Positions 40,727 to 61,836 are shown, counted from the stretch's first letter. The stretch: DNA of 64,000 bases from a virus (IMGVR_UViG_3300017963_000189); one strand, 5' to 3'. Notes: generated from the letters alone by a model not told the origin. Made by a program: numbers and translations.

Positions 40727-42370
40727 TTAGAATTTATCCATAATAAAGTCACTCATTATAGATGGCGCGTTTGTGTCGAAACCAACAACGTCGAGTGAGC
40801 TTCTATCCTTTGGATCAGCAATAGTGAAACCATTCGATGCCATACCAACTACAACTAACTTGACATCGTGACCCACTTTATGACGATAACGATCCATTGC
40901 TTCGCTTGGTTGGATATTTCCTGCCCAAGTTTCATTATCGGTATATACAAAAATCGCGTCAAAATCCTTGTTCATACCAGCGGCCCACAATGCTGGTAAA
41001 GCACAATCAGTTCCACCAAAATCTAACCTGCTAACGTAATTATCCACATCATTCAAACTCATTCTATCGTGTAACTTCAATTCCGTTACATTAGTTAACG
41101 CTTGACCAGAACCATACCAACCACCACCGGTAAATCCAATAATACCCCAGTTCTTTTCAGCTTTCATCGTTACCATAGCCATTGCGGACGATGCGGAACG
41201 ACAACTGATAAATGGAGCGTTTTGAATACCACTACCCATAGAACCAGATACATCCAAAGCAATCAAGATTCTCTTACCCGTAGACTCAATGTTCTTGAAT
41301 GCTTTGTAAAATCCTGCGTCCAAAGCGGAAACGATTTGTGGTACAACGTTCCAAGTATTAGACCCACGAAAACCACGTCCTGCTTCATAGGTTTTCAAAG
41401 CCATTAATAATTGAATAGGATGTACACGTGCTTTCTTTAACGCTTCATCATTAGTGATCTTGTCAACCACTAAGTTGATTTCGTCAAAGTTACCACTTTC
41501 CAAGATACCAACTTTGGATAAGTTACCTAAATTACGAATTAACGCAGTCATAGGCATTGTTGGTAACAACGCTTCGTATACTTTCTTTCCTAAGAATTGT
41601 GTAGGAATAGCTTCCCGTGGCAAGTTATATTCCTTAATCAAGTTCACAATTTCCTTTTCATTTTCGGCTTTCTTTGCTAACTCAAAACCATAAATCATTG
41701 GAATTTTCCTATACTTCTCAATGTCGCCATTGATTCCTTGAGTAATCCAATGGAATACCTTGTTCATATCTTCATTGACGGCTTGTGCATGAGACTTACG
41801 TAAAATGTCACGGTGACTCCACCCGTCACGAGATTGATACTTGACTACTTGATACGCCAACTTGTTGATGTCCTTGTCGGTGTACCACTTGGCGAATGCC
41901 TTACGTAATCCACGACCCCAACCACGCATCGAGTTTACGAACTCTGTGAAATGGAATAAATGAGTACCAATACGTGCTACTTTACTCAAGTTGTCCAAAG
42001 CGTACTTCTTAGCTTCGTCAGTTCCATAGGAAGCAACCATCGCTAATACGAATAACGCTGGATCATTATTAGGTGCACGACCCTCTAAAGAAATCTCAAC
42101 TACACGATTTACAACTTCAATGCCATCTTCCTTGATTAACTTTTCAATGTTCTTAGCATTCTTCTTAGTTAACTTTTGCGCGGATGCGTAATAAGTTGGT
42201 TGATCGCTACCCAATACTAAGAAACGATTTAACTTATCCCACTTGTCCAACTTAAATGAGACGCCACCGCCATAATTCTTAGCCATATCTTTCTTACGAC
42301 CCTTGATTTTTTGGTTTTGTGGAGTTGCTACCTTAGTAGACTTGTTTAAAGTTTTGGTATAATTTTGCAT
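40727..42370 (-). CDS. rsr: Ro60/TROVE-domain RNA-binding protein (start MQNYTK)
   Basis: LNRFLVLGS...YY, KYQSRDGWSHRDILR, MTALIRNLG, ARVHPIQLL, vWA MIDAS LDVSGSM, GGTDCALP, VYTDNETWAG. Confidence 0.95.
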   Translation of the reverse strand: MQNYTKTLNKSTKVATPQNQKIKGRKKDMAKNYGGGVSFKLDKWDKLNRFLVLGSDQPTYYASAQKLTKKNAKNIEKLIKEDGIEVVNRVVEISLEGRAPNNDPALFVLAMVASYGTDEAKKYALDNLSKVARIGTHLFHFTEFVNSMRGWGRGLRKAFAKWYTDKDINKLAYQVVKYQSRDGWSHRDILRKSHAQAVNEDMNKVFHWITQGINGDIEKYRKIPMIYGFELAKKAENEKEIVNLIKEYNLPREAIPTQFLGKKVYEALLPTMPMTALIRNLGNLSKVGILESGNFDEINLVVDKITNDEALKKARVHPIQLLMALKTYEAGRGFRGSNTWNVVPQIVSALDAGFYKAFKNIESTGKRILIALDVSGSMGSGIQNAPFISCRSASSAMAMVTMKAEKNWGIIGFTGGGWYGSGQALTNVTELKLHDRMSLNDVDNYVSRLDFGGTDCALPALWAAGMNKDFDAIFVYTDNETWAGNIQPSEAMDRYRHKVGHDVKLVVVGMASNGFTIADPKDRSSLDVVGFDTNAPSIMSDFIMDKF

Positions 42371-42410
42371 GATTCGACCCTCCTGTTTAAAGGTAAATGT
42401 TATATAAACT

Positions 42411-42437
42411 AAAAAACCCGACAAGATATTTGTCGGG
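42411..42437 (-). terminator. Terminator/attenuator hairpin in Ro60 leader
   Basis: CCCGACAA-ATATC-TTGTCGGG plus T6, about 40 nt before the start codon. Confidence 0.7.
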
Positions 42438-42460
42438 TTACTATTGTAAACAAAATATCT

Positions 42461-42522
42461 TGGATAAAAAGTTGTTGATGTTATTTTTACGTGTGATCGC
42501 GATAATCATCAACTACGACCCA
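42461..42522 (-). ncRNA. Y-RNA-like element Y1
   Basis: TGGGTCGTA-GTTGATG-ATTATC...CATCAAC-AACTTTTTATCCA. Confidence 0.65.
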
Positions 42523-42599
42523 AATTATGTCTGAGATTGTAGGTTTTACAATCTCGTTACTGTTTGTACACATGGTACATCAGCTAAAATATAAAAAAT

Positions 42600-42915
42600 T
42601 GGCGGGATTCGCATCTACCCGCAAGCGTTCATTCAGACTTGAATTATTCGAGCATGTCGGTTAACAACCGTCGTTATTAACCTTATGACAGGAAGAACCT
42701 ATCTATTTATCTTCCAACGTCCACTAGCAGTAGCTCTATTGCCAATTATAATGGGGATTTTAGCAGACGAACCATTGATATGTTTTTTTCAACCCCAAGA
42801 GTTGATCCCACTCCCATATCGACAGTCTCTTATTCTCACTGAACTCGCAACCGACTCCCAGAACTTTTCAGTCTGGGCTATCGTACCTTACTCACCTGCA
42901 TGAGTTATTCAGTCA
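42600..42915 (-). ncRNA. Unidentified ~315-nt structured RNA
   Basis: No credible ORF, higher GC, closing stem GACTGAAT/ATTCAAGTC, GNRA hairpin CCCAGACT-GAAA-AGTTCTGGG, 3' hairpin GCGGG/CCCGC. Confidence 0.55.
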
Positions 42916-42944
42916 CAAAATTTTCAAAGATCAAAATAAAATGA

Positions 42945-43027
42945 TGGATAAAGGTGGCTAACGAGATTGACGCGCGTCACGTCCTGCGTTTTTTTCGATT
43001 AAAAGATAACGTTAAACCGACGACCCA
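42945..43027 (-). ncRNA. Y-RNA-like element Y2
   Basis: TGGGTCGTC-GGTTTAACG-TTATC...CGTTAGCC-ACCTTTATCCA. Confidence 0.65.
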
Positions 43028-43058
43028 TCAAGTCCTGTATCAATCAGGACTTGTTTAG

Positions 43059-43132
43059 TAGCGGGGGCTGGATTTGAACCAGCGACCTCCGGGATATGAA
43101 CCCGACGAGCTACCAGACTGCTCCACCCCGCA
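43059..43132 (-). tRNA. tRNA-fMet(CAU), initiator type
   Basis: 1:72 mismatch, GGG/CCC anticodon stem, TT CAT AT loop. Confidence 0.93.
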
Positions 43133-43203
43133 ATACAATATGTTATATATACTTATATACTATTCAACTAAATAAAAGTTCCATTTTTCTCAAAAAAAAA
43201 TTT

Positions 43204-43437
43204 AGGATAAGGAACGACCAGAGAGAGTTGATTTTTCCGTGAAACTATCACGTCTTTTTAACGTTGTTGTTAAAGACTCTCAACGGGGCTTCTTAAACTT
43301 GCTCCCACACAAGAAACTCTAAGACCGCGAAAACTTTCTTCGGTTAAGATTTTACGACGCGGCTAGCAGATCGAGTTTACAATCTACCTTTCATCCTTTT
43401 AGAATTATCTGTAAGGTAACTCTGCATCAACGACCCT
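43204..43437 (-). ncRNA. Y-RNA-like element Y3 with ~190-nt inserted domain
   Basis: AGGGTCGTT-GATGCAGAG-TTACC...CTCTCTCTGGTC-GTTCCTTATCCT; own upstream promoter. Confidence 0.55.
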
Positions 43438-43569
43438 AAAAGTTGAGAAAAATTTTCAAAGAACTATTTGTACTACCATATATAAGTATATACAAATTTT
43501 CGAAACGTATCTATTATACTACTTTTTGTGAAAAAAAGTTCCATTTTTTGAAACTTTTTTTATTTTTTA

Positions 43570-43923
43570 TCATCCGTCTCGCCATGCTTCAGAATAAGTA
43601 GAAAATTCAAGATCATCACCGAACTTTTCCTTGAGTTTCTTTTCTACTCTCGCCTTAAATTCGGCTCCAGTTTCATCGTCTTTAACTTGATCCCACGACA
43701 CACCAATATAACAACCATAATCTCCGTCATAAGGCCATAGACATTCCATATCAAGTTCTTTTCCTAATTCATATCCAATTTCCCATACATCAGTATCATC
43801 GTCGTCGTTTTCAACTTCCATATTTAAAGCCTCACGAAATTCATCTTCCGATTCAAAACAAATTCCATAAATCAAGAATGAAGATGTGGAACTATTACTT
43901 ACAAACCCATTTCTTACTTTCAT
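43570..43923 (-). CDS. GFVSNSS-motif protein 8 (MKVRNGFVSNSSTSSF)
   Basis: N-terminal motif; AGGA RBS. Confidence 0.85.
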   Translation of the reverse strand: MKVRNGFVSNSSTSSFLIYGICFESEDEFREALNMEVENDDDDTDVWEIGYELGKELDMECLWPYDGDYGCYIGVSWDQVKDDETGAEFKARVEKKLKEKFGDDLEFSTYSEAWRDG

Positions 43924-61149: not shown

Positions 61150-61232
61150 TACCGACACTCGGATTCGAACCGAGACGGGATTTCTCCCACTCGCTTTTGA
61201 AACGAGCGTGTCTACCATTCCACCATATCGGC
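61150..61232 (-). tRNA. tRNA-Leu(CAA)
   Basis: Cloverleaf with long variable arm. Confidence 0.95.
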
Positions 61233-61237
61233 ATAAT

Positions 61238-61337
61238 GTCAAGGATTTTCACTACACAAAAGTTGACATATCTATGTAGTAAAGGCGTTTTACGTTTGTC
61301 GGTCTAAGTCAACCTCGACCTTTCCCACGACCTTGAC
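61238..61337 (-). ncRNA. Unidentified structured intergenic RNA
   Basis: GTCAAGG/CCTTGAC closing stem, TTTACTACA/TGTAGTGAA hairpin, GTTGAC complementary to loop GTCAAC. Confidence 0.45.
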
Positions 61338-61346
61338 GTACCTTAG

Positions 61347-61429
61347 TAGCACTGGAGAGATTCGAACTCTCATGTATGTTTCAACCGCCGGGTTTAAGCC
61401 GACTGCGTATGCCATTCCGCCACAGTGCC
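61347..61429 (-). tRNA. tRNA-Leu(UAA)
   Basis: Cloverleaf with variable arm. Confidence 0.93.
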
Positions 61430-61439
61430 ATATATTTTG

Positions 61440-61512
61440 TAGCACCACCCGGATTCGAACCGAGATCTGTGGGGCGAAAACCCACTATCCTAAACCATTA
61501 GACGATGATGCC
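61440..61512 (-). tRNA. tRNA-Glu(UUC)
   Basis: Cloverleaf. Confidence 0.9.
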
Positions 61513-61519
61513 ATATAAT

Positions 61520-61599
61520 GAGCAAATAGTTGTCAAGGAATAACCCCGAAGGGCTATTGGATTCGAACCAATTTAACCGATAACCTTAACATTCGGCTC
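61520..61599 (-). ncRNA. YrlA-like Y RNA Y5
   Basis: GAGCCGAATG (GNCGAAN0-1G)-TTAAGG-TTATC, T-arm ATTGG-TTCGAAT-CCAAT, closed hairpin AGCCC-TTCG-GGGTT, CCTTGACA...GCTC. Confidence 0.8.
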
Positions 61600-61604
61600 A
61601 TTTG

Positions 61605-61679
61605 TCGGGATAGACGGATTCGAACCGCCGATCCCATGCTCCCAAAGCATGTGCGTTAGCCAGACTACGCTATATCCCG
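61605..61679 (-). tRNA. tRNA-Pro(UGG)
   Basis: Cloverleaf. Confidence 0.95.
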
Positions 61680-61686
61680 ATAAAAG

Positions 61687-61758
61687 TCTGAGCGGCTGGG
61701 CTCGAACCAGCGCGTTCCCGGTTCCAAGCCGGGGTTCTTCCAACTGAACTACGCCCAG
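61687..61758 (-). tRNA. tRNA-Pro(UGG)
   Basis: Cloverleaf. Confidence 0.92.
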
Positions 61759-61764
61759 ATAATA

Positions 61765-61836
61765 AAACGAACAAGAGTGACCAACGAGTTTTGTTCTTTT
61801 TGACAGGAAAGATAATCGTCAATCTTCGGCTCGTTT
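61765..61836 (-). ncRNA. Y-RNA-like element Y6 (minimal)
   Basis: AAACGAGC-CGAAG-ATTGACG-ATTATC...CGTTGGT-CACTCTT-GTTCGTTT. Confidence 0.75.

What the first reader, a model, noticed from the sequence alone, without database searches (positions are those of the whole stretch)
40727..61836. Phage Ro60 with at least six Y-RNA-like RNAs carrying different variable domains
Seen: six elements (42461, 42945, 43204, 59279, 61520, 61765) share stem1-GNCG(A/U)N-stem2-UUA(U/C)C-[variable]-stem2'-pyrimidine-rich-stem1'. Stem sequences differ but keep pairing, and the variable part ranges from about 20 to 190 nt. Established: Ro60 binds Y RNAs through a GNCGAAN(0-1)G-type stem, vertebrate Y RNAs have CCGAAG-stem-UUAUC, and bacterial Y RNAs tether Ro to partners such as PNPase. 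Inference: a modular adaptor system in which one Ro60 is recruited to several partners or substrates, far larger than the one or two Y RNAs usually described per genome.
Basis: partly seen in the sequence, partly recalled or inferred. Interest (0 to 1): 0.88.

Follow-up and report, generated by a model that had tools for sequence, protein, structure and literature searches.

The report
Phage Ro60 with nine Y-RNA-like partners
An uncultured giant marine phage encodes the RNA-binding ring protein Ro60 together with at least seven small RNAs (plus two tRNA-shaped ones) that all carry the same Ro60-type "handle" but different bodies, most of them packed between its tRNA genes; this extends the known phage Ro60/Y-RNA pairing into a large, modular RNA family.

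Summary
ORF 40727-42370(-) is a full Ro60 (TROVE + Ro60 vWA; E 1e-115 to human Ro60 and Deinococcus Rsr). All six listed elements exist on the gene strand. I found a seventh (60989-61069) and two tRNA-shaped RNAs whose anticodon arm is replaced by the same module in circularly permuted order.

All seven share stem1, a bulged C, an invariant G.U, stem2 and (A/G)UUA(U/C)C. A covariance model trained only on similar RNAs from other phages ranks six of them as the six best hits in the window; the longest scores weakly. Across relatives 92% of pair cells stay paired and 13-14 of 18 pairs show compensatory changes.

The RNA class occurs in many large phages, often several copies beside tRNAs. It co-occurs with a Ro60 gene in 8 of 10 records against 0 of 29 controls. 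The model also hits three RNAs upstream of the Ro gene of Mycobacterium phage LinStu, one with the published YrlA layout.

So these are phage Y-RNA-like (Yrl) RNAs: a new variant of a known kind. Ro60 binding, expression and the "modular adaptor" role remain untested. This scan has noted similar multi-copy arrays on other phage DNA before.

The parts
40727..42370 (-). Ro60 (Rsr-like) gene, 547 aa
   Evidence: Pfam vWA_Ro60 E 2.7e-56 and TROVE E 2.5e-39. PDB sequence search: human Ro60 9nen E 4.6e-115, D. radiodurans Rsr 2nvo E 1.1e-114, Xenopus Ro60 1yvp E 2.6e-106. The 547-aa form is identical to a called protein in the collection.
42458..42524 (-). Y-like RNA C (GGGUCGU type, ~20-nt distal part); a hairpin followed by a U run lies just downstream, before Ro60
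   Evidence: Sequence and fold. Seven orthologues: 93.5% of cells paired, 4 pairs with compensatory change, slid controls 29-54%. R2 21.6 bits, E 2.5e-3.
42942..43030 (-). Y-like RNA B (GGGUCGU type; distal part holds a GACG/CGUC hairpin whose stem is kept in L002/L007)
   Evidence: R2 24.2 bits, E 5e-4. Orthologues in L007 (33.3 bits) and L009 (51.5 bits). Stem1 and stem2 sequences differ between orthologues while pairing is kept (read).
43201..43440 (-). Y-like RNA A (GGGUCGU type, ~190-nt multi-hairpin distal domain, followed by a U9 run)
   Evidence: RNAalifold on four orthologues recovers stem1 and stem2 with 4 compensatory pairs. R2 aligns it full length but at only 10.5 bits, E 2.1. The exact 11-mer AATGGAACTTT lies at 43535-43545, about 95 nt upstream.
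59278..59393 (-). Y-like RNA D (GGGUCGA type; distal domain of three hairpins, one T-arm-like; followed by a U8 run and tRNA-Phe)
   Evidence: z -3.1. R2 28.5 bits, E 3.9e-5, not in the training set. A relative's contig keeps the inner hairpin through A59354-U59345 changing to G-C.
60989..61069 (-). Y-like RNA G (GAGCCGAA type), new here; between tRNA-Trp and tRNA-Ile with 1- and 3-nt spacers
   Evidence: z -3.3. R1 60.5 bits and R2 58.1 bits. It was in the R1/R2 training set.
61516..61603 (-). Y-like RNA E (GAGCCGAA type; distal part = T-arm-like hairpin UUGGUUCGAAUCCAA plus a UUCG hairpin); between tRNA-Pro and tRNA-Glu
   Evidence: z -3.25. Orthologue R3 in relative G001 (L013 560-651) keeps both distal hairpins with changed stems. 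R2 57.1 bits. In the training set.
61764..61837 (-). Y-like RNA F (GAGCCGAA type, A-rich ~28-nt distal loop); between tRNA-Gly and tRNA-Pro
   Evidence: R2 60.2 bits. In the training set.
57486..57605 (-). P1: tRNA-shaped RNA (7-bp acceptor stem, D arm, T arm) whose anticodon arm is a circularly permuted, loop-capped copy of the handle
   Evidence: Rfam tRNA 41.9 bits across 120 nt. Parse: stem2' GUUGCUUCG, UUUUU, GUCCU, AAC cap, AGGGC, bulged C, GC, stem2 UGGAGAAAC, then GUUAUC. The script's default register gave 0/7 acceptor pairs; starting one base earlier (57605) gives UGCGCGA/UCGCGCA, 7/7, by my own reading. Same architecture in two other Ro60 phages (L039 twice, L090).
59394..59588 (-). 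P2: long tRNA-like RNA (7-bp acceptor UCUUGGA/UCUGAGA, T arm) containing a capped permuted handle (ACUUAGAU, CGUUCCU, GCUGAU, CGCG cap, AUCAGC, bulged C, GA, AUCUAAGU, then AGAAUC)
   Evidence: A relative's contig keeps both helices through compensatory changes (my reconstruction from the table). Not detected by the Rfam tRNA model, so weaker than P1.
43058..43132 (-). tRNA-Met lying between A and B, behind a second copy of the 11-mer AATGGAACTTT (43175-43185)
   Evidence: The same tRNA sits among the A/B/C homologues in relatives L002, L007 and L009.

Best explanation
The window holds a phage Ro60 ribonucleoprotein system. One Ro60 gene is accompanied by a family of Y-RNA-like (Yrl) genes. 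Each RNA has the same handle: a closing stem, a bulged C, a G.U pair, a second stem and a UUAUC-type turn. This handle is the counterpart of the helix through which Ro60 binds Y RNAs. Beyond the handle each RNA carries a different distal module. These range from a 20-nt loop, through a T-arm mimic, to a 190-nt multi-hairpin domain. In two cases the body is a whole tRNA with the handle grafted in permuted form.

Inferred: A has its own promoter-like motif and a U run. B and C lie with tRNA-Met behind a second copy of the motif, and a hairpin followed by a U run separates them from Ro60. D-G, P1 and P2 are packed 1-10 nt from tRNAs. They would therefore be released from the polycistronic tRNA precursor by the tRNA-processing nucleases. 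RNase P is one candidate, and the phage carries its own mini RNase P-like RNA.

Inferred, less certain: bound RNAs gate the Ro60 ring and tether it to different partners. Candidates are host 3'-5' exonucleases such as PNPase, and enzymes that read the tRNA elbow. This would place Ro60 in RNA surveillance or repair during infection. The neighbouring Thg1, SAK-type HAD, NUDIX and RNase T-like genes, the tmRNA and the roughly 45 tRNA genes are consistent with that setting.
For: Ro60 identity.

One family: model R2 was trained on 29 RNAs. E, F and G were in the training set; none of the window's A-D were. With filters off it ranks F, G, E, D, B, C as the top six hits of the whole window.

Structure: alignment A5 (29 RNAs from 15 phage loci) has 92.1% of cells paired, 13 of 18 pairs with compensatory change, and covariation 0.669 against 0.231 in shuffles; slid controls give 33-51%. 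A6 gives 92.0% and 14 of 18. The C family, on a structure-blind MAFFT alignment, gives 93.5% and 4 compensatory pairs. The A family is recovered by RNAalifold. The G.U after the bulge is invariant in 29 of 29.

Link to Ro60: A-C lie within 1.1 kb upstream on the same strand, and this arrangement is conserved in six relatives. A TROVE gene is present in 8 of 10 viral records with model hits (5 of 5 that are at least 90% complete) and in 0 of 29 records that hold only the bare sequence pattern. R2 hits three RNAs directly upstream of the Ro gene of Mycobacterium phage LinStu. The middle one has the T-arm, closed acceptor and D-arm order of published YrlA.

Processing: the spacers to adjacent tRNAs are 1-10 nt. 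Co-transcription of Yrn2, tRNA-Asp and Yrn1, and RNase P cleavage of a YrlA, are published (PMC4201824). An RNase P-like RNA is present in the same genome (RF00010, 50.7 bits, E 1.3e-14, below the gathering score).

Chimeras: five examples in three Ro60 phages, each with a 7-bp acceptor stem, a T arm and a capped handle (the P1 acceptor register is my own correction).

Context genes.
Against: No experimental or transcript evidence exists. Rfam Y_RNA and YrlA give no hit on any element even at E<=10 in sub-kilobase searches. A-C lack the AA of the published GNCGAAN0-1G motif. D-G lie 17-20 kb from Ro60, outside the 4-kb neighbourhood that Chen 2014 used as a criterion. A reaches only 10.5 bits. 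Alignments A5 and A6 were fitted to the model's structure, which inflates pair counts. The co-occurrence controls were not size-matched: most control records are 20-60 kb. The permuted-handle descriptor alone is not significant (28 hits against 16 +/- 4 in shuffles). Only two close relatives hold part of the tRNA array.
Confidence: 0.72

Rival explanations
1. The RNAs bind Ro60 but act mainly as decoys or gates rather than adaptors. Many abundant handles would keep the phage Ro60 closed until needed. Alternatively they would titrate the host's own Rsr/PNPase machinery, or tRNA-targeting defence nucleases through their tRNA-like bodies.
For: Gating of the Ro60 cavity by Y RNA is part of the published model (PMC4201824). 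The phiLo paper proposes that its Yrl RNAs with phage Ro60 hijack host PNPase (PMC12135203). Several elements (C, F) have almost no distal module to act as a tether. P1 and P2 are tRNA look-alikes without an anticodon loop.
Against: The distal modules are conserved between relatives: the T-arm and UUCG hairpins of E against R3, the hairpins of A, and the GACG/CGUC hairpin of B. That argues they are read by something. A pure sponge would not need nine different bodies.
Confidence: 0.15
2. The array copies (D-G, P1, P2) are Ro60-independent structured spacers of the tRNA operon. They would guide or buffer precursor processing or stability, and resemble the Ro60-proximal RNAs only because they share a stable hairpin design.
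For: They sit exactly between tRNAs with 1-10-nt spacers. Other structured spacers that do not match the model also occur in the same array. They are far from Ro60.
Against: One model joins the array copies to the Ro60-proximal copies (D, B and C score without having been trained on; B of L009 scores 39-51 bits). The class tracks TROVE genes across unrelated phages (8 of 10 against 0 of 29). The conserved unpaired and bulged nucleotides (C bulge, G.U, UUAUC) are not needed for a mere spacer hairpin.
Confidence: 0.08
3. They are decaying tRNA genes or a short mobile repeat without function.
For: E, D, P1 and P2 contain T-arm-like hairpins. tRNA arrays commonly accumulate pseudogenes (general knowledge, not tested here).
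Against: Compensatory changes preserve both stems in orthologues and in distant phages. The paralogues share structure rather than sequence, unlike recent repeats. No flanking direct repeats were noticed by eye; the repeat finder was not run.
Confidence: 0.03

Closest known systems
Bacterial and mycobacteriophage YrlA/YrlB with Rsr (Chen et al. 2014, PMC4201824; Rfam RF02553)
   Same: Small RNAs encoded upstream of, and on the same strand as, a Ro60 orthologue. The 5' and 3' ends pair into a stem carrying a GNCGAA-type motif. There are at least two RNAs per genome, one with a tRNA-like module. They can be co-transcribed with tRNAs and cut by RNase P. My model hits the three RNAs upstream of the Ro gene of Mycobacterium phage LinStu.
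   Different: There are seven linear copies plus two chimeras instead of one to three. Six of the nine lie 15-20 kb away inside the tRNA array. A-C carry GUCGU rather than GNCGAA. Most lack a tRNA-like domain. P1 and P2 have normal tRNA topology with a capped handle, which is the reverse permutation of YrlA. The Rfam YrlA model detects none of them.
Thermus phage phiLo Ro60 with Yrl1/Yrl2 (PMC12135203; PDB 9KOP, 9L5Y)
   Same: A phage-encoded Ro60 with Y-RNA-like genes upstream, recognised by a stem, bulge and stem with a CGAA motif. Binding to the phage Ro60 and a ternary complex with host PNPase were shown in vitro.
   Different: Two RNAs there, both adjacent to the gene. No tRNA-array copies or tRNA chimeras are described. 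phiLo Ro60 did not appear among the PDB sequence matches at E<=1e-5, so the proteins are distant.
Metazoan Y RNAs (Rfam RF00019) with Ro60
   Same: Terminal stem with a bulged C followed by G.U/A-U, then an asymmetric loop, a second stem of about 7 bp and UUAUC. From my memory of hY1 (not checked with a tool), GGUCCGAAGGUAGUGAGUUAUC compares with GAGCCGAAUGUUAAGGUUAUC here. The protein is about as close to human Ro60 as to bacterial Rsr.
   Different: No RF00019 hit at E<=10. No Pol III/La system. The distal loops are unrelated. The metazoan comparison therefore rests on my recollection of the sequence.
D. radiodurans Yrn1/Yrn2 (PMC4201824)
   Same: Several Y RNAs beside rsr. Yrn2, tRNA-Asp and Yrn1 are made as one precursor. 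Yrn1 tethers Rsr to PNPase.
   Different: Bacterial rather than phage. Two confirmed RNAs. No array-embedded family.

Membership tests
Y RNA in the functional sense (RNA partner of Ro60) | Physically bound by Ro60 | not testable with these tools
   Needs RIP or EMSA. No RNA sequencing run holds the stretch.
Y RNA in the functional sense (RNA partner of Ro60) | 5' and 3' ends pair into a stem holding a conserved bulged helix with a GGUCCGA-like 5' strand | tested here: met
   Bulged C plus invariant G.U (29 of 29). Stem1 91.7-93.4% and stem2 90.4-92.4% of cells paired, with 13-14 of 18 pairs compensatory. Folds.
Y RNA in the functional sense (RNA partner of Ro60) | Genome also encodes Ro60, and the RNA class co-occurs with it | tested here: met
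   Ro60 in the window. TROVE in 8 of 10 records with model hits against 0 of 29 controls; the controls were not size-matched.
Metazoan Y_RNA (Rfam RF00019) | Match to the Rfam covariance model | tested here: not met
   No hit at E<=10 in searches of 24 kb, 0.86 kb and 1 kb.
YrlA (Rfam RF02553; Chen 2014) | Match to the Rfam covariance model at the gathering score | tested here: not met
   The only hit is 24 bits on a true tRNA pair. The model also gives no gathering-score hit in the Ro-gene region of Mycobacterium phage LinStu, where my model finds a YrlA-type RNA, so this test is narrow.
YrlA (Rfam RF02553; Chen 2014) | GNCGAAN0-1G motif near the 5' end | tested here: inconclusive
   Met by E (GCCGAAUG), G (GCCGAAAG) and F (GCCGAAG). 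Near miss in D (GUCGAUG). Not met by A, B and C (GUCGUU, GUCGUC, GUCGUA).
YrlA (Rfam RF02553; Chen 2014) | Distal tRNA-like domain (T arm, D arm, loop-closed acceptor stem) | tested here: not met
   E and D have only a T-arm-like hairpin. A, B, C, F and G have none. P1 and P2 have a complete tRNA body but in the opposite permutation.
YrlA (Rfam RF02553; Chen 2014) | Encoded within about 4 kb of Ro60 on the same strand | tested here: inconclusive
   A-C: met (0.1-1.1 kb upstream). D-G, P1 and P2: same strand but 15-20 kb away.
YrlA (Rfam RF02553; Chen 2014) | Homology to a mycobacteriophage RNA with the published YrlA layout | tested here: met
   R2 hits L148 11661-11805 (27.6 bits, E 5.5e-5; T arm, closed acceptor, D arm). 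It also hits two flanking RNAs at 33.1 and 31.7 bits, all directly upstream of the LinStu Ro gene.

The most novel reading that the evidence does not exclude
The Ro60 handle is a portable module that this phage lineage, and other Ro60 phages, has grafted onto many RNA bodies, including complete tRNA scaffolds. The tRNA-topology chimeras (open 7-bp acceptor stem, D and T arms, capped handle in place of the anticodon arm) would be the un-permuted counterpart of YrlA. They would be matured like tRNAs by RNase P/Z and perhaps the CCA-adding enzyme. They would couple Ro60 directly to the tRNA-handling or tRNA-repair machinery during infection. The result would be a multi-adaptor RNP network encoded within the tRNA operon.
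Probability: 0.3. Interest if true: 0.8.

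Novelty: new variant of a known kind. Interest (0 to 1): 0.6.

Why it matters
Ro60/Y-RNA particles are conserved from bacteria to humans, where Ro60 is a lupus/Sjögren autoantigen. What the variable parts of Y RNAs do is still largely open.

A phage that pairs one Ro60 with nine differently equipped handles offers a compact natural test of the "Y RNA as adaptor" idea. Each RNA can be pulled down and its partner identified.

It would also show that phage tRNA arrays hide a second class of genes. 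It supplies tRNA-topology forms that bear on how YrlA arose from tRNA. And it adds Ro60 RNPs to the RNA-repair and surveillance toolkits of giant phages.

If binding fails, the RNAs would still be a widespread, covariation-supported phage RNA class without a function.

Tried and rejected
- Rfam at gathering score and at E<=10 on three sub-regions gave no Y_RNA or YrlA hit on any element.
- A simple 5' regular expression gave 16 hits against 8.4 expected. A loose stem descriptor gave 23 hits (915 without the UUAUC requirement), so it was not specific.
- The permuted-handle descriptor gave 28 hits against 16 +/- 4 in shuffles. A stricter version gave 7 hits in 227 kb of model-hit loci against 5 in 901 kb of controls, which is suggestive only.
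- MAFFT could not align the 3' strands across all types or the chimeras. No covariance model was built for the chimeras, and one model slot was left unused.
- DNA search of GenBank phages found only tRNA-Met similarity.
- The search for related loci with ORF 56025-56534 found no relative.
- The metagenome pattern scan for the distal part of E returned two chance matches without tRNAs or model hits.
- The contigs of P0002 and P0011 had no retrievable DNA.
- Sequencing runs: no RNA holder is listed, so expression could not be examined. Most laid contigs matched only tRNA genes of other organisms.
- RtcB and RNase PH/PNPase-core families were not found, and RNA_ligase gave only 17 bits, in the 161-kb record. 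The record is an estimated 70%-complete fragment, so this says little.
- Candidate H (61233-61345; GUCAAGGUCGUG...AAUCCUUGAC) looked handle-like by eye but is not matched by R2 and lacks stem2 and UUAUC. I do not count it.

Full report
**Setting.** The window is bases 1430-65429 of a 161.6-kb IMG/VR phage record estimated to be 70% complete. An identical Ro60 protein also occurs on a 309-kb contig, so the phage is probably a jumbo phage. DNA of this stretch is held by sediment and seawater metagenome runs. All genes of the region are on the minus strand. ARAGORN finds 37 tRNAs and a tmRNA in the window, and 44 tRNAs plus the tmRNA in the whole record.

**The protein.** ORF 40727-42370(-) encodes a 547-aa protein with a TROVE domain (E 2.5e-39) and the Ro60 vWA domain (E 2.7e-56). 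By sequence it matches human Ro60 (E 4.6e-115), D. radiodurans Rsr (1.1e-114) and Xenopus Ro60 (2.6e-106) over nearly its whole length. The closest GenBank phage proteins are below 45% identical. They are mainly 'Ro-like RNA binding proteins' of Mycobacterium, Gordonia and Streptomyces phages, and of Sinorhizobium phage Phosso.

**Checking the observation.**
- C: 42458-42524
- B: 42942-43030
- A: 43201-43440
- D: 59278-59393
- E: 61516-61603
- F: 61764-61837

A motif scan of the whole record found a seventh, G (60989-61069), between tRNA-Trp and tRNA-Ile. Each folds with the 5' and 3' ends paired (stem1), an asymmetric internal loop and a second stem. Four of the seven have fold z-scores of -2.2 to -3.3.

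Two sequence flavours exist. E, F and G read (A/C)GAGC-C-GAA(N)-stem2-(G/A)UUAUC on the 5' strand and ...AC(U/A)(C/U/A)UU-G(C/U)UC... on the 3' strand. A-D read GGGU-C-G(U/A)N-stem2-(A/G)UUA(U/C)C and ...UUAUCC or ...ACUUACCC. In both, the base before the bulged C pairs (C-G or U-A), the C is unpaired, and the following G faces a U.

**One family, beyond chance.** My loose hand-written descriptors were not discriminating, so I used covariance models.
- Model R1 was built from E, F, G, three elements of relative G001 and four elements of other phages. It also found B of L009 at 39 bits, and B of L007 and of the window weakly.
- A degenerate pattern scan of IMG/VR followed by R1 gave 29 hits at E<=1e-3 in 15 loci. 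Several loci hold more than one hit: five in L093 (a 277-kb record), four in L039, two each in L036 and L100. At a looser threshold L103 and L068 also show two.
- In the loci I inspected (L068, L093, L129, L039) the hits lie beside tRNA or tRNA-like genes.
- Model R2 was rebuilt from those 29. It contains none of the window's A-D. I ran it with filters off over the whole 64-kb window. Its six best hits are F 60.2, G 58.1, E 57.1, D 28.5 (E 3.9e-5), B 24.2 (5e-4) and C 21.6 bits (2.5e-3). A is aligned full length at 10.5 bits, penalised by its 190-nt insert.
- No hit occurs in the other 96 kb of the record.

**Covariation.**
- Alignment A5 (29 RNAs): 92.1% of pair cells are standard pairs and 13 of 18 pairs show compensatory changes. 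The covariation score is 0.669 against 0.231 +/- 0.020 in column shuffles. Sliding the partner by 1-3 columns gives 33-51% paired.
- Alignment A6 (17 RNAs of the window's lineage): 92.0% paired, 14 of 18 compensatory.

These two alignments are fitted to the model, which favours pairing. Two analyses that did not use the model agree with them.
- A MAFFT alignment of seven orthologues of C gives 93.5% paired and four compensatory pairs, against 29-54% when slid.
- RNAalifold on four orthologues of A recovers exactly stem1 and stem2, with four compensatory pairs.

In the one relative that holds part of the tRNA array (G001), three handles sit in the array. One of them (R3) is the orthologue of E. 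It keeps both distal hairpins, the T-arm-like UUGGUUCGA(A/G)UCCAA and a second hairpin, with changed stem sequences. A 777-nt contig from a marine-sediment run covers part of D and P2. From its listed differences, the inner hairpin of D changes A-U to G-C.

**Link to Ro60.** Three observations connect the RNA class to the protein.
- A, B and C lie within 1.1 kb upstream of Ro60 on the same strand. Homologues of C are found upstream of Ro60 in L002, L003, L004, L007, L009, L010 and L011, and homologues of A and B in L002, L007 and L009.
- Of ten viral records with model hits, eight encode a TROVE protein, including all five that are at least 90% complete. The two without are 60% and 11% complete. 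None of 29 records that hold only the bare sequence pattern does. These controls are mostly smaller phages, so the contrast is not size-matched. Iyer et al. (PMC7824862) state that only a small subset of jumbo phages has a TROVE protein.
- In the cultured Mycobacterium phage LinStu, R2 hits three unannotated RNAs at L148 11563-11636, 11661-11805 and 11839-11909, directly upstream of the Ro gene at 11965. The middle one carries a T arm, a closed acceptor-like hairpin and a D arm in that order, which is the published YrlA layout. Mycobacteriophages are where phage YrlA was first reported (PMC4201824).

The window's RNAs therefore belong to the same broad family as published phage Y RNAs. The Rfam YrlA model reaches its gathering score neither here nor in LinStu.

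**tRNA-shaped members.** I examined it independently, and separately came across a second case.
- P1 (57605-57486) scores 41.9 bits with the Rfam tRNA model over 120 nt. It has a D arm and a T arm. In place of the anticodon arm it has stem2' (GUUGCUUCG), UUUUU, GUCCU, an AAC cap, AGGGC, a bulged C, GC, stem2 (UGGAGAAAC) and GUUAUC. That is the handle with its two strands in reverse order and stem1 closed by a loop. The script's default register gave no acceptor pairs. Starting one base earlier gives UGCGCGA/UCGCGCA, 7 of 7, by my own reading.
- P2 (59588-59394) has a 7-bp acceptor stem and a T arm. Its insert contains ACUUAGAU, CGUUCCU, GCUGAU, a CGCG cap, AUCAGC, a bulged C, GA, AUCUAAGU and AGAAUC. 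In the sediment contig the top pair of the capped stem flips U-A to A-U. By my reconstruction from the listed substitutions and indels, the other helix changes from ACUUAGAU/AUCUAAGU to CUUAUAAGU/ACUUAUAAG, which is again fully complementary.
- The same architecture occurs twice in L039 (one copy scores 43.3 bits as tRNA) and once in L090. Both come from Ro60-encoding records, and both sit next to linear handles.

The generic permuted descriptor is not significant by itself. These RNAs are supported by recurrence, context and a few compensatory changes, and less firmly than the linear seven. Published work describes most YrlA RNAs as resembling circularly permuted tRNAs with closed acceptor stems (bioRxiv 10.1101/312249). 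P1 and P2 are the opposite permutation. I found no description of such forms in the library I could search.

**How they are probably made (inference).** The exact 11-mer AATGGAACTTT occurs three times on the minus strand of the window, where about 0.03 would be expected by my own estimate (128,000 positions / 4^11). One copy lies about 95 nt upstream of A and one about 45 nt upstream of tRNA-Met. A near-identical motif lies upstream of the RNA cluster in L002. A ends in a U9 run. C is followed by a hairpin with a U run before Ro60.

D-G, P1 and P2 are packed against tRNAs with spacers of 1-10 nt. Release by the tRNA-processing nucleases is the simplest route. It has precedent in the Yrn2, tRNA-Asp and Yrn1 precursor and in RNase P cleavage of M. 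smegmatis YrlA (PMC4201824). The same record holds a 203-nt RNase P-like RNA (RF00010, 50.7 bits, E 1.3e-14, below the gathering score of 100).

**What they probably do (inference).** By analogy with Deinococcus and Salmonella Rsr-Y RNA-PNPase complexes, and with the in-vitro phiLo Ro60-Yrl-PNPase complex (PMC4201824, PMC12135203), the handles would load Ro60. The distal modules would gate it or tether it to partners. The distal parts of A, B and E are conserved, which argues that they are read by something.

The neighbourhood encodes Thg1 (34498-35289), a HAD domain of 'Swiss Army Knife' RNA-repair proteins (30711-31244), two NUDIX proteins, an RNase T-like exonuclease (51633-52241), a PAS protein and a radical SAM enzyme. 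Relatives add an RNA ligase and HSP20. This is consistent with RNA repair or surveillance, but it does not show which partners are used.

**Novelty.** Phage Ro60 with one to three adjacent Y-like RNAs is published. That several Y RNAs may widen Ro60's range of partners is already suggested in PMC4201824. What I could not find in print is the following:
- a nine-member family in one phage
- the placement of most members inside the tRNA operon, 15-20 kb from Ro60
- the GGGUCGU variant of the handle
- the tRNA-topology chimeras

My own searches show the multi-copy, tRNA-associated arrangement in several unrelated large phages. Earlier notes of this scan report similar arrays on other phage DNA (e1-272486, e1-5403473, e1-4036987); I did not check those notes.

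I therefore rate this as a new variant of a known kind. It is well supported as an RNA family and as a Ro60 companion. Binding, expression and mechanism remain to be shown.

Noticed in passing
window 42592-42920 (-); L002 9553-9885, L007 5795-6125, L010 97-425, L003 117-450; part also in L129 7715-7937: A conserved ~330-nt non-coding RNA lies between Y-like RNAs B and C. RNAalifold predicts 87 pairs, 42 with compensatory changes in five phages. Its 5' end pairs with the 3' end just after a T-arm-like hairpin (GYGGGUAGAUGCGAAUCCCRC). The only Rfam hint is manA RNA at 20 bits, E 0.01 in a 1-kb search, far below the gathering score of 55. It may be a further RNA of the Ro60 locus.
   Followed up: partly
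window 42545-42590 (-); L009 9695-9726; L011 3413-3453: A ~40-nt element (AGCUGAUGUACCAUGUGUACAAACAGUAACG) between the large RNA and C is about 90% identical in distant relatives. It contains the palindrome TGTAC-N5-GTACA. It could be an operator or a processing signal.
   Followed up: no
window 61233-61345 (-): A 113-nt structured spacer between tRNA-Leu(caa) and tRNA-Leu(taa). It has a closing stem GUCAAGG/CCUUGAC followed by UCGUG, and an internal CGUAAAA like the loop of C. It is not matched by model R2.
   Followed up: partly
window 61991-62310, 63180-63365, 62394-62475, 63010-63107, 63825-63915, 58872-59035 (-): Further ORF-free, strongly folding spacers lie in the tRNA array. Two long tRNA-like RNAs with T arms occupy 61991-62310. 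An ~80-nt tRNA-like RNA with an 8-bp acceptor stem lies in 63180-63365. Neither ARAGORN nor Rfam calls any of them.
   Followed up: no
L137 15381-15583 (-) = record G000 80710-80912: A 203-nt RNA matches bacterial RNase P class A across the whole model at 50.7 bits (gathering score 100), E 1.3e-14 in a 700-nt search.
   Followed up: partly
window 52933-53004 (-); L002 5891-5966: A tRNA with anticodon CUA (amber-reading; ARAGORN labels it Pyl) is conserved in the relative. This could mean suppressor use or TAG recoding.
   Followed up: no
window 26769-28742 (-): A phage ORF with TonB-dependent receptor beta-barrel and Plug domains (E 5.9e-21 and 1.5e-10). This is an unusual cargo gene for a phage.
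   Followed up: no
window 43535-43545, 43175-43185, 15986-15996 (-): The exact 11-mer AATGGAACTTT occurs three times on the gene strand, followed about 20 nt later by TATAAT-like sequence. It lies ahead of A and of tRNA-Met, and a near-identical motif lies upstream of the RNA cluster in L002. It is probably a phage promoter element.
   Followed up: partly
L148 11563-11909 (Mycobacterium phage LinStu, NC_023714 127495-127841): Three model hits lie in the unannotated gap (one overlaps the small ORF gp230) directly upstream of the Ro-like gene gp231. The record annotates no RNA there.
   Followed up: partly
window 57277-57355 (-): An Rfam tRNA hit (47.1 bits) that ARAGORN does not call.
   Followed up: no
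window 18153-18484 (-): A phage-encoded tmRNA (Rfam 137 bits; tag peptide GNELQLAA).
   Followed up: no
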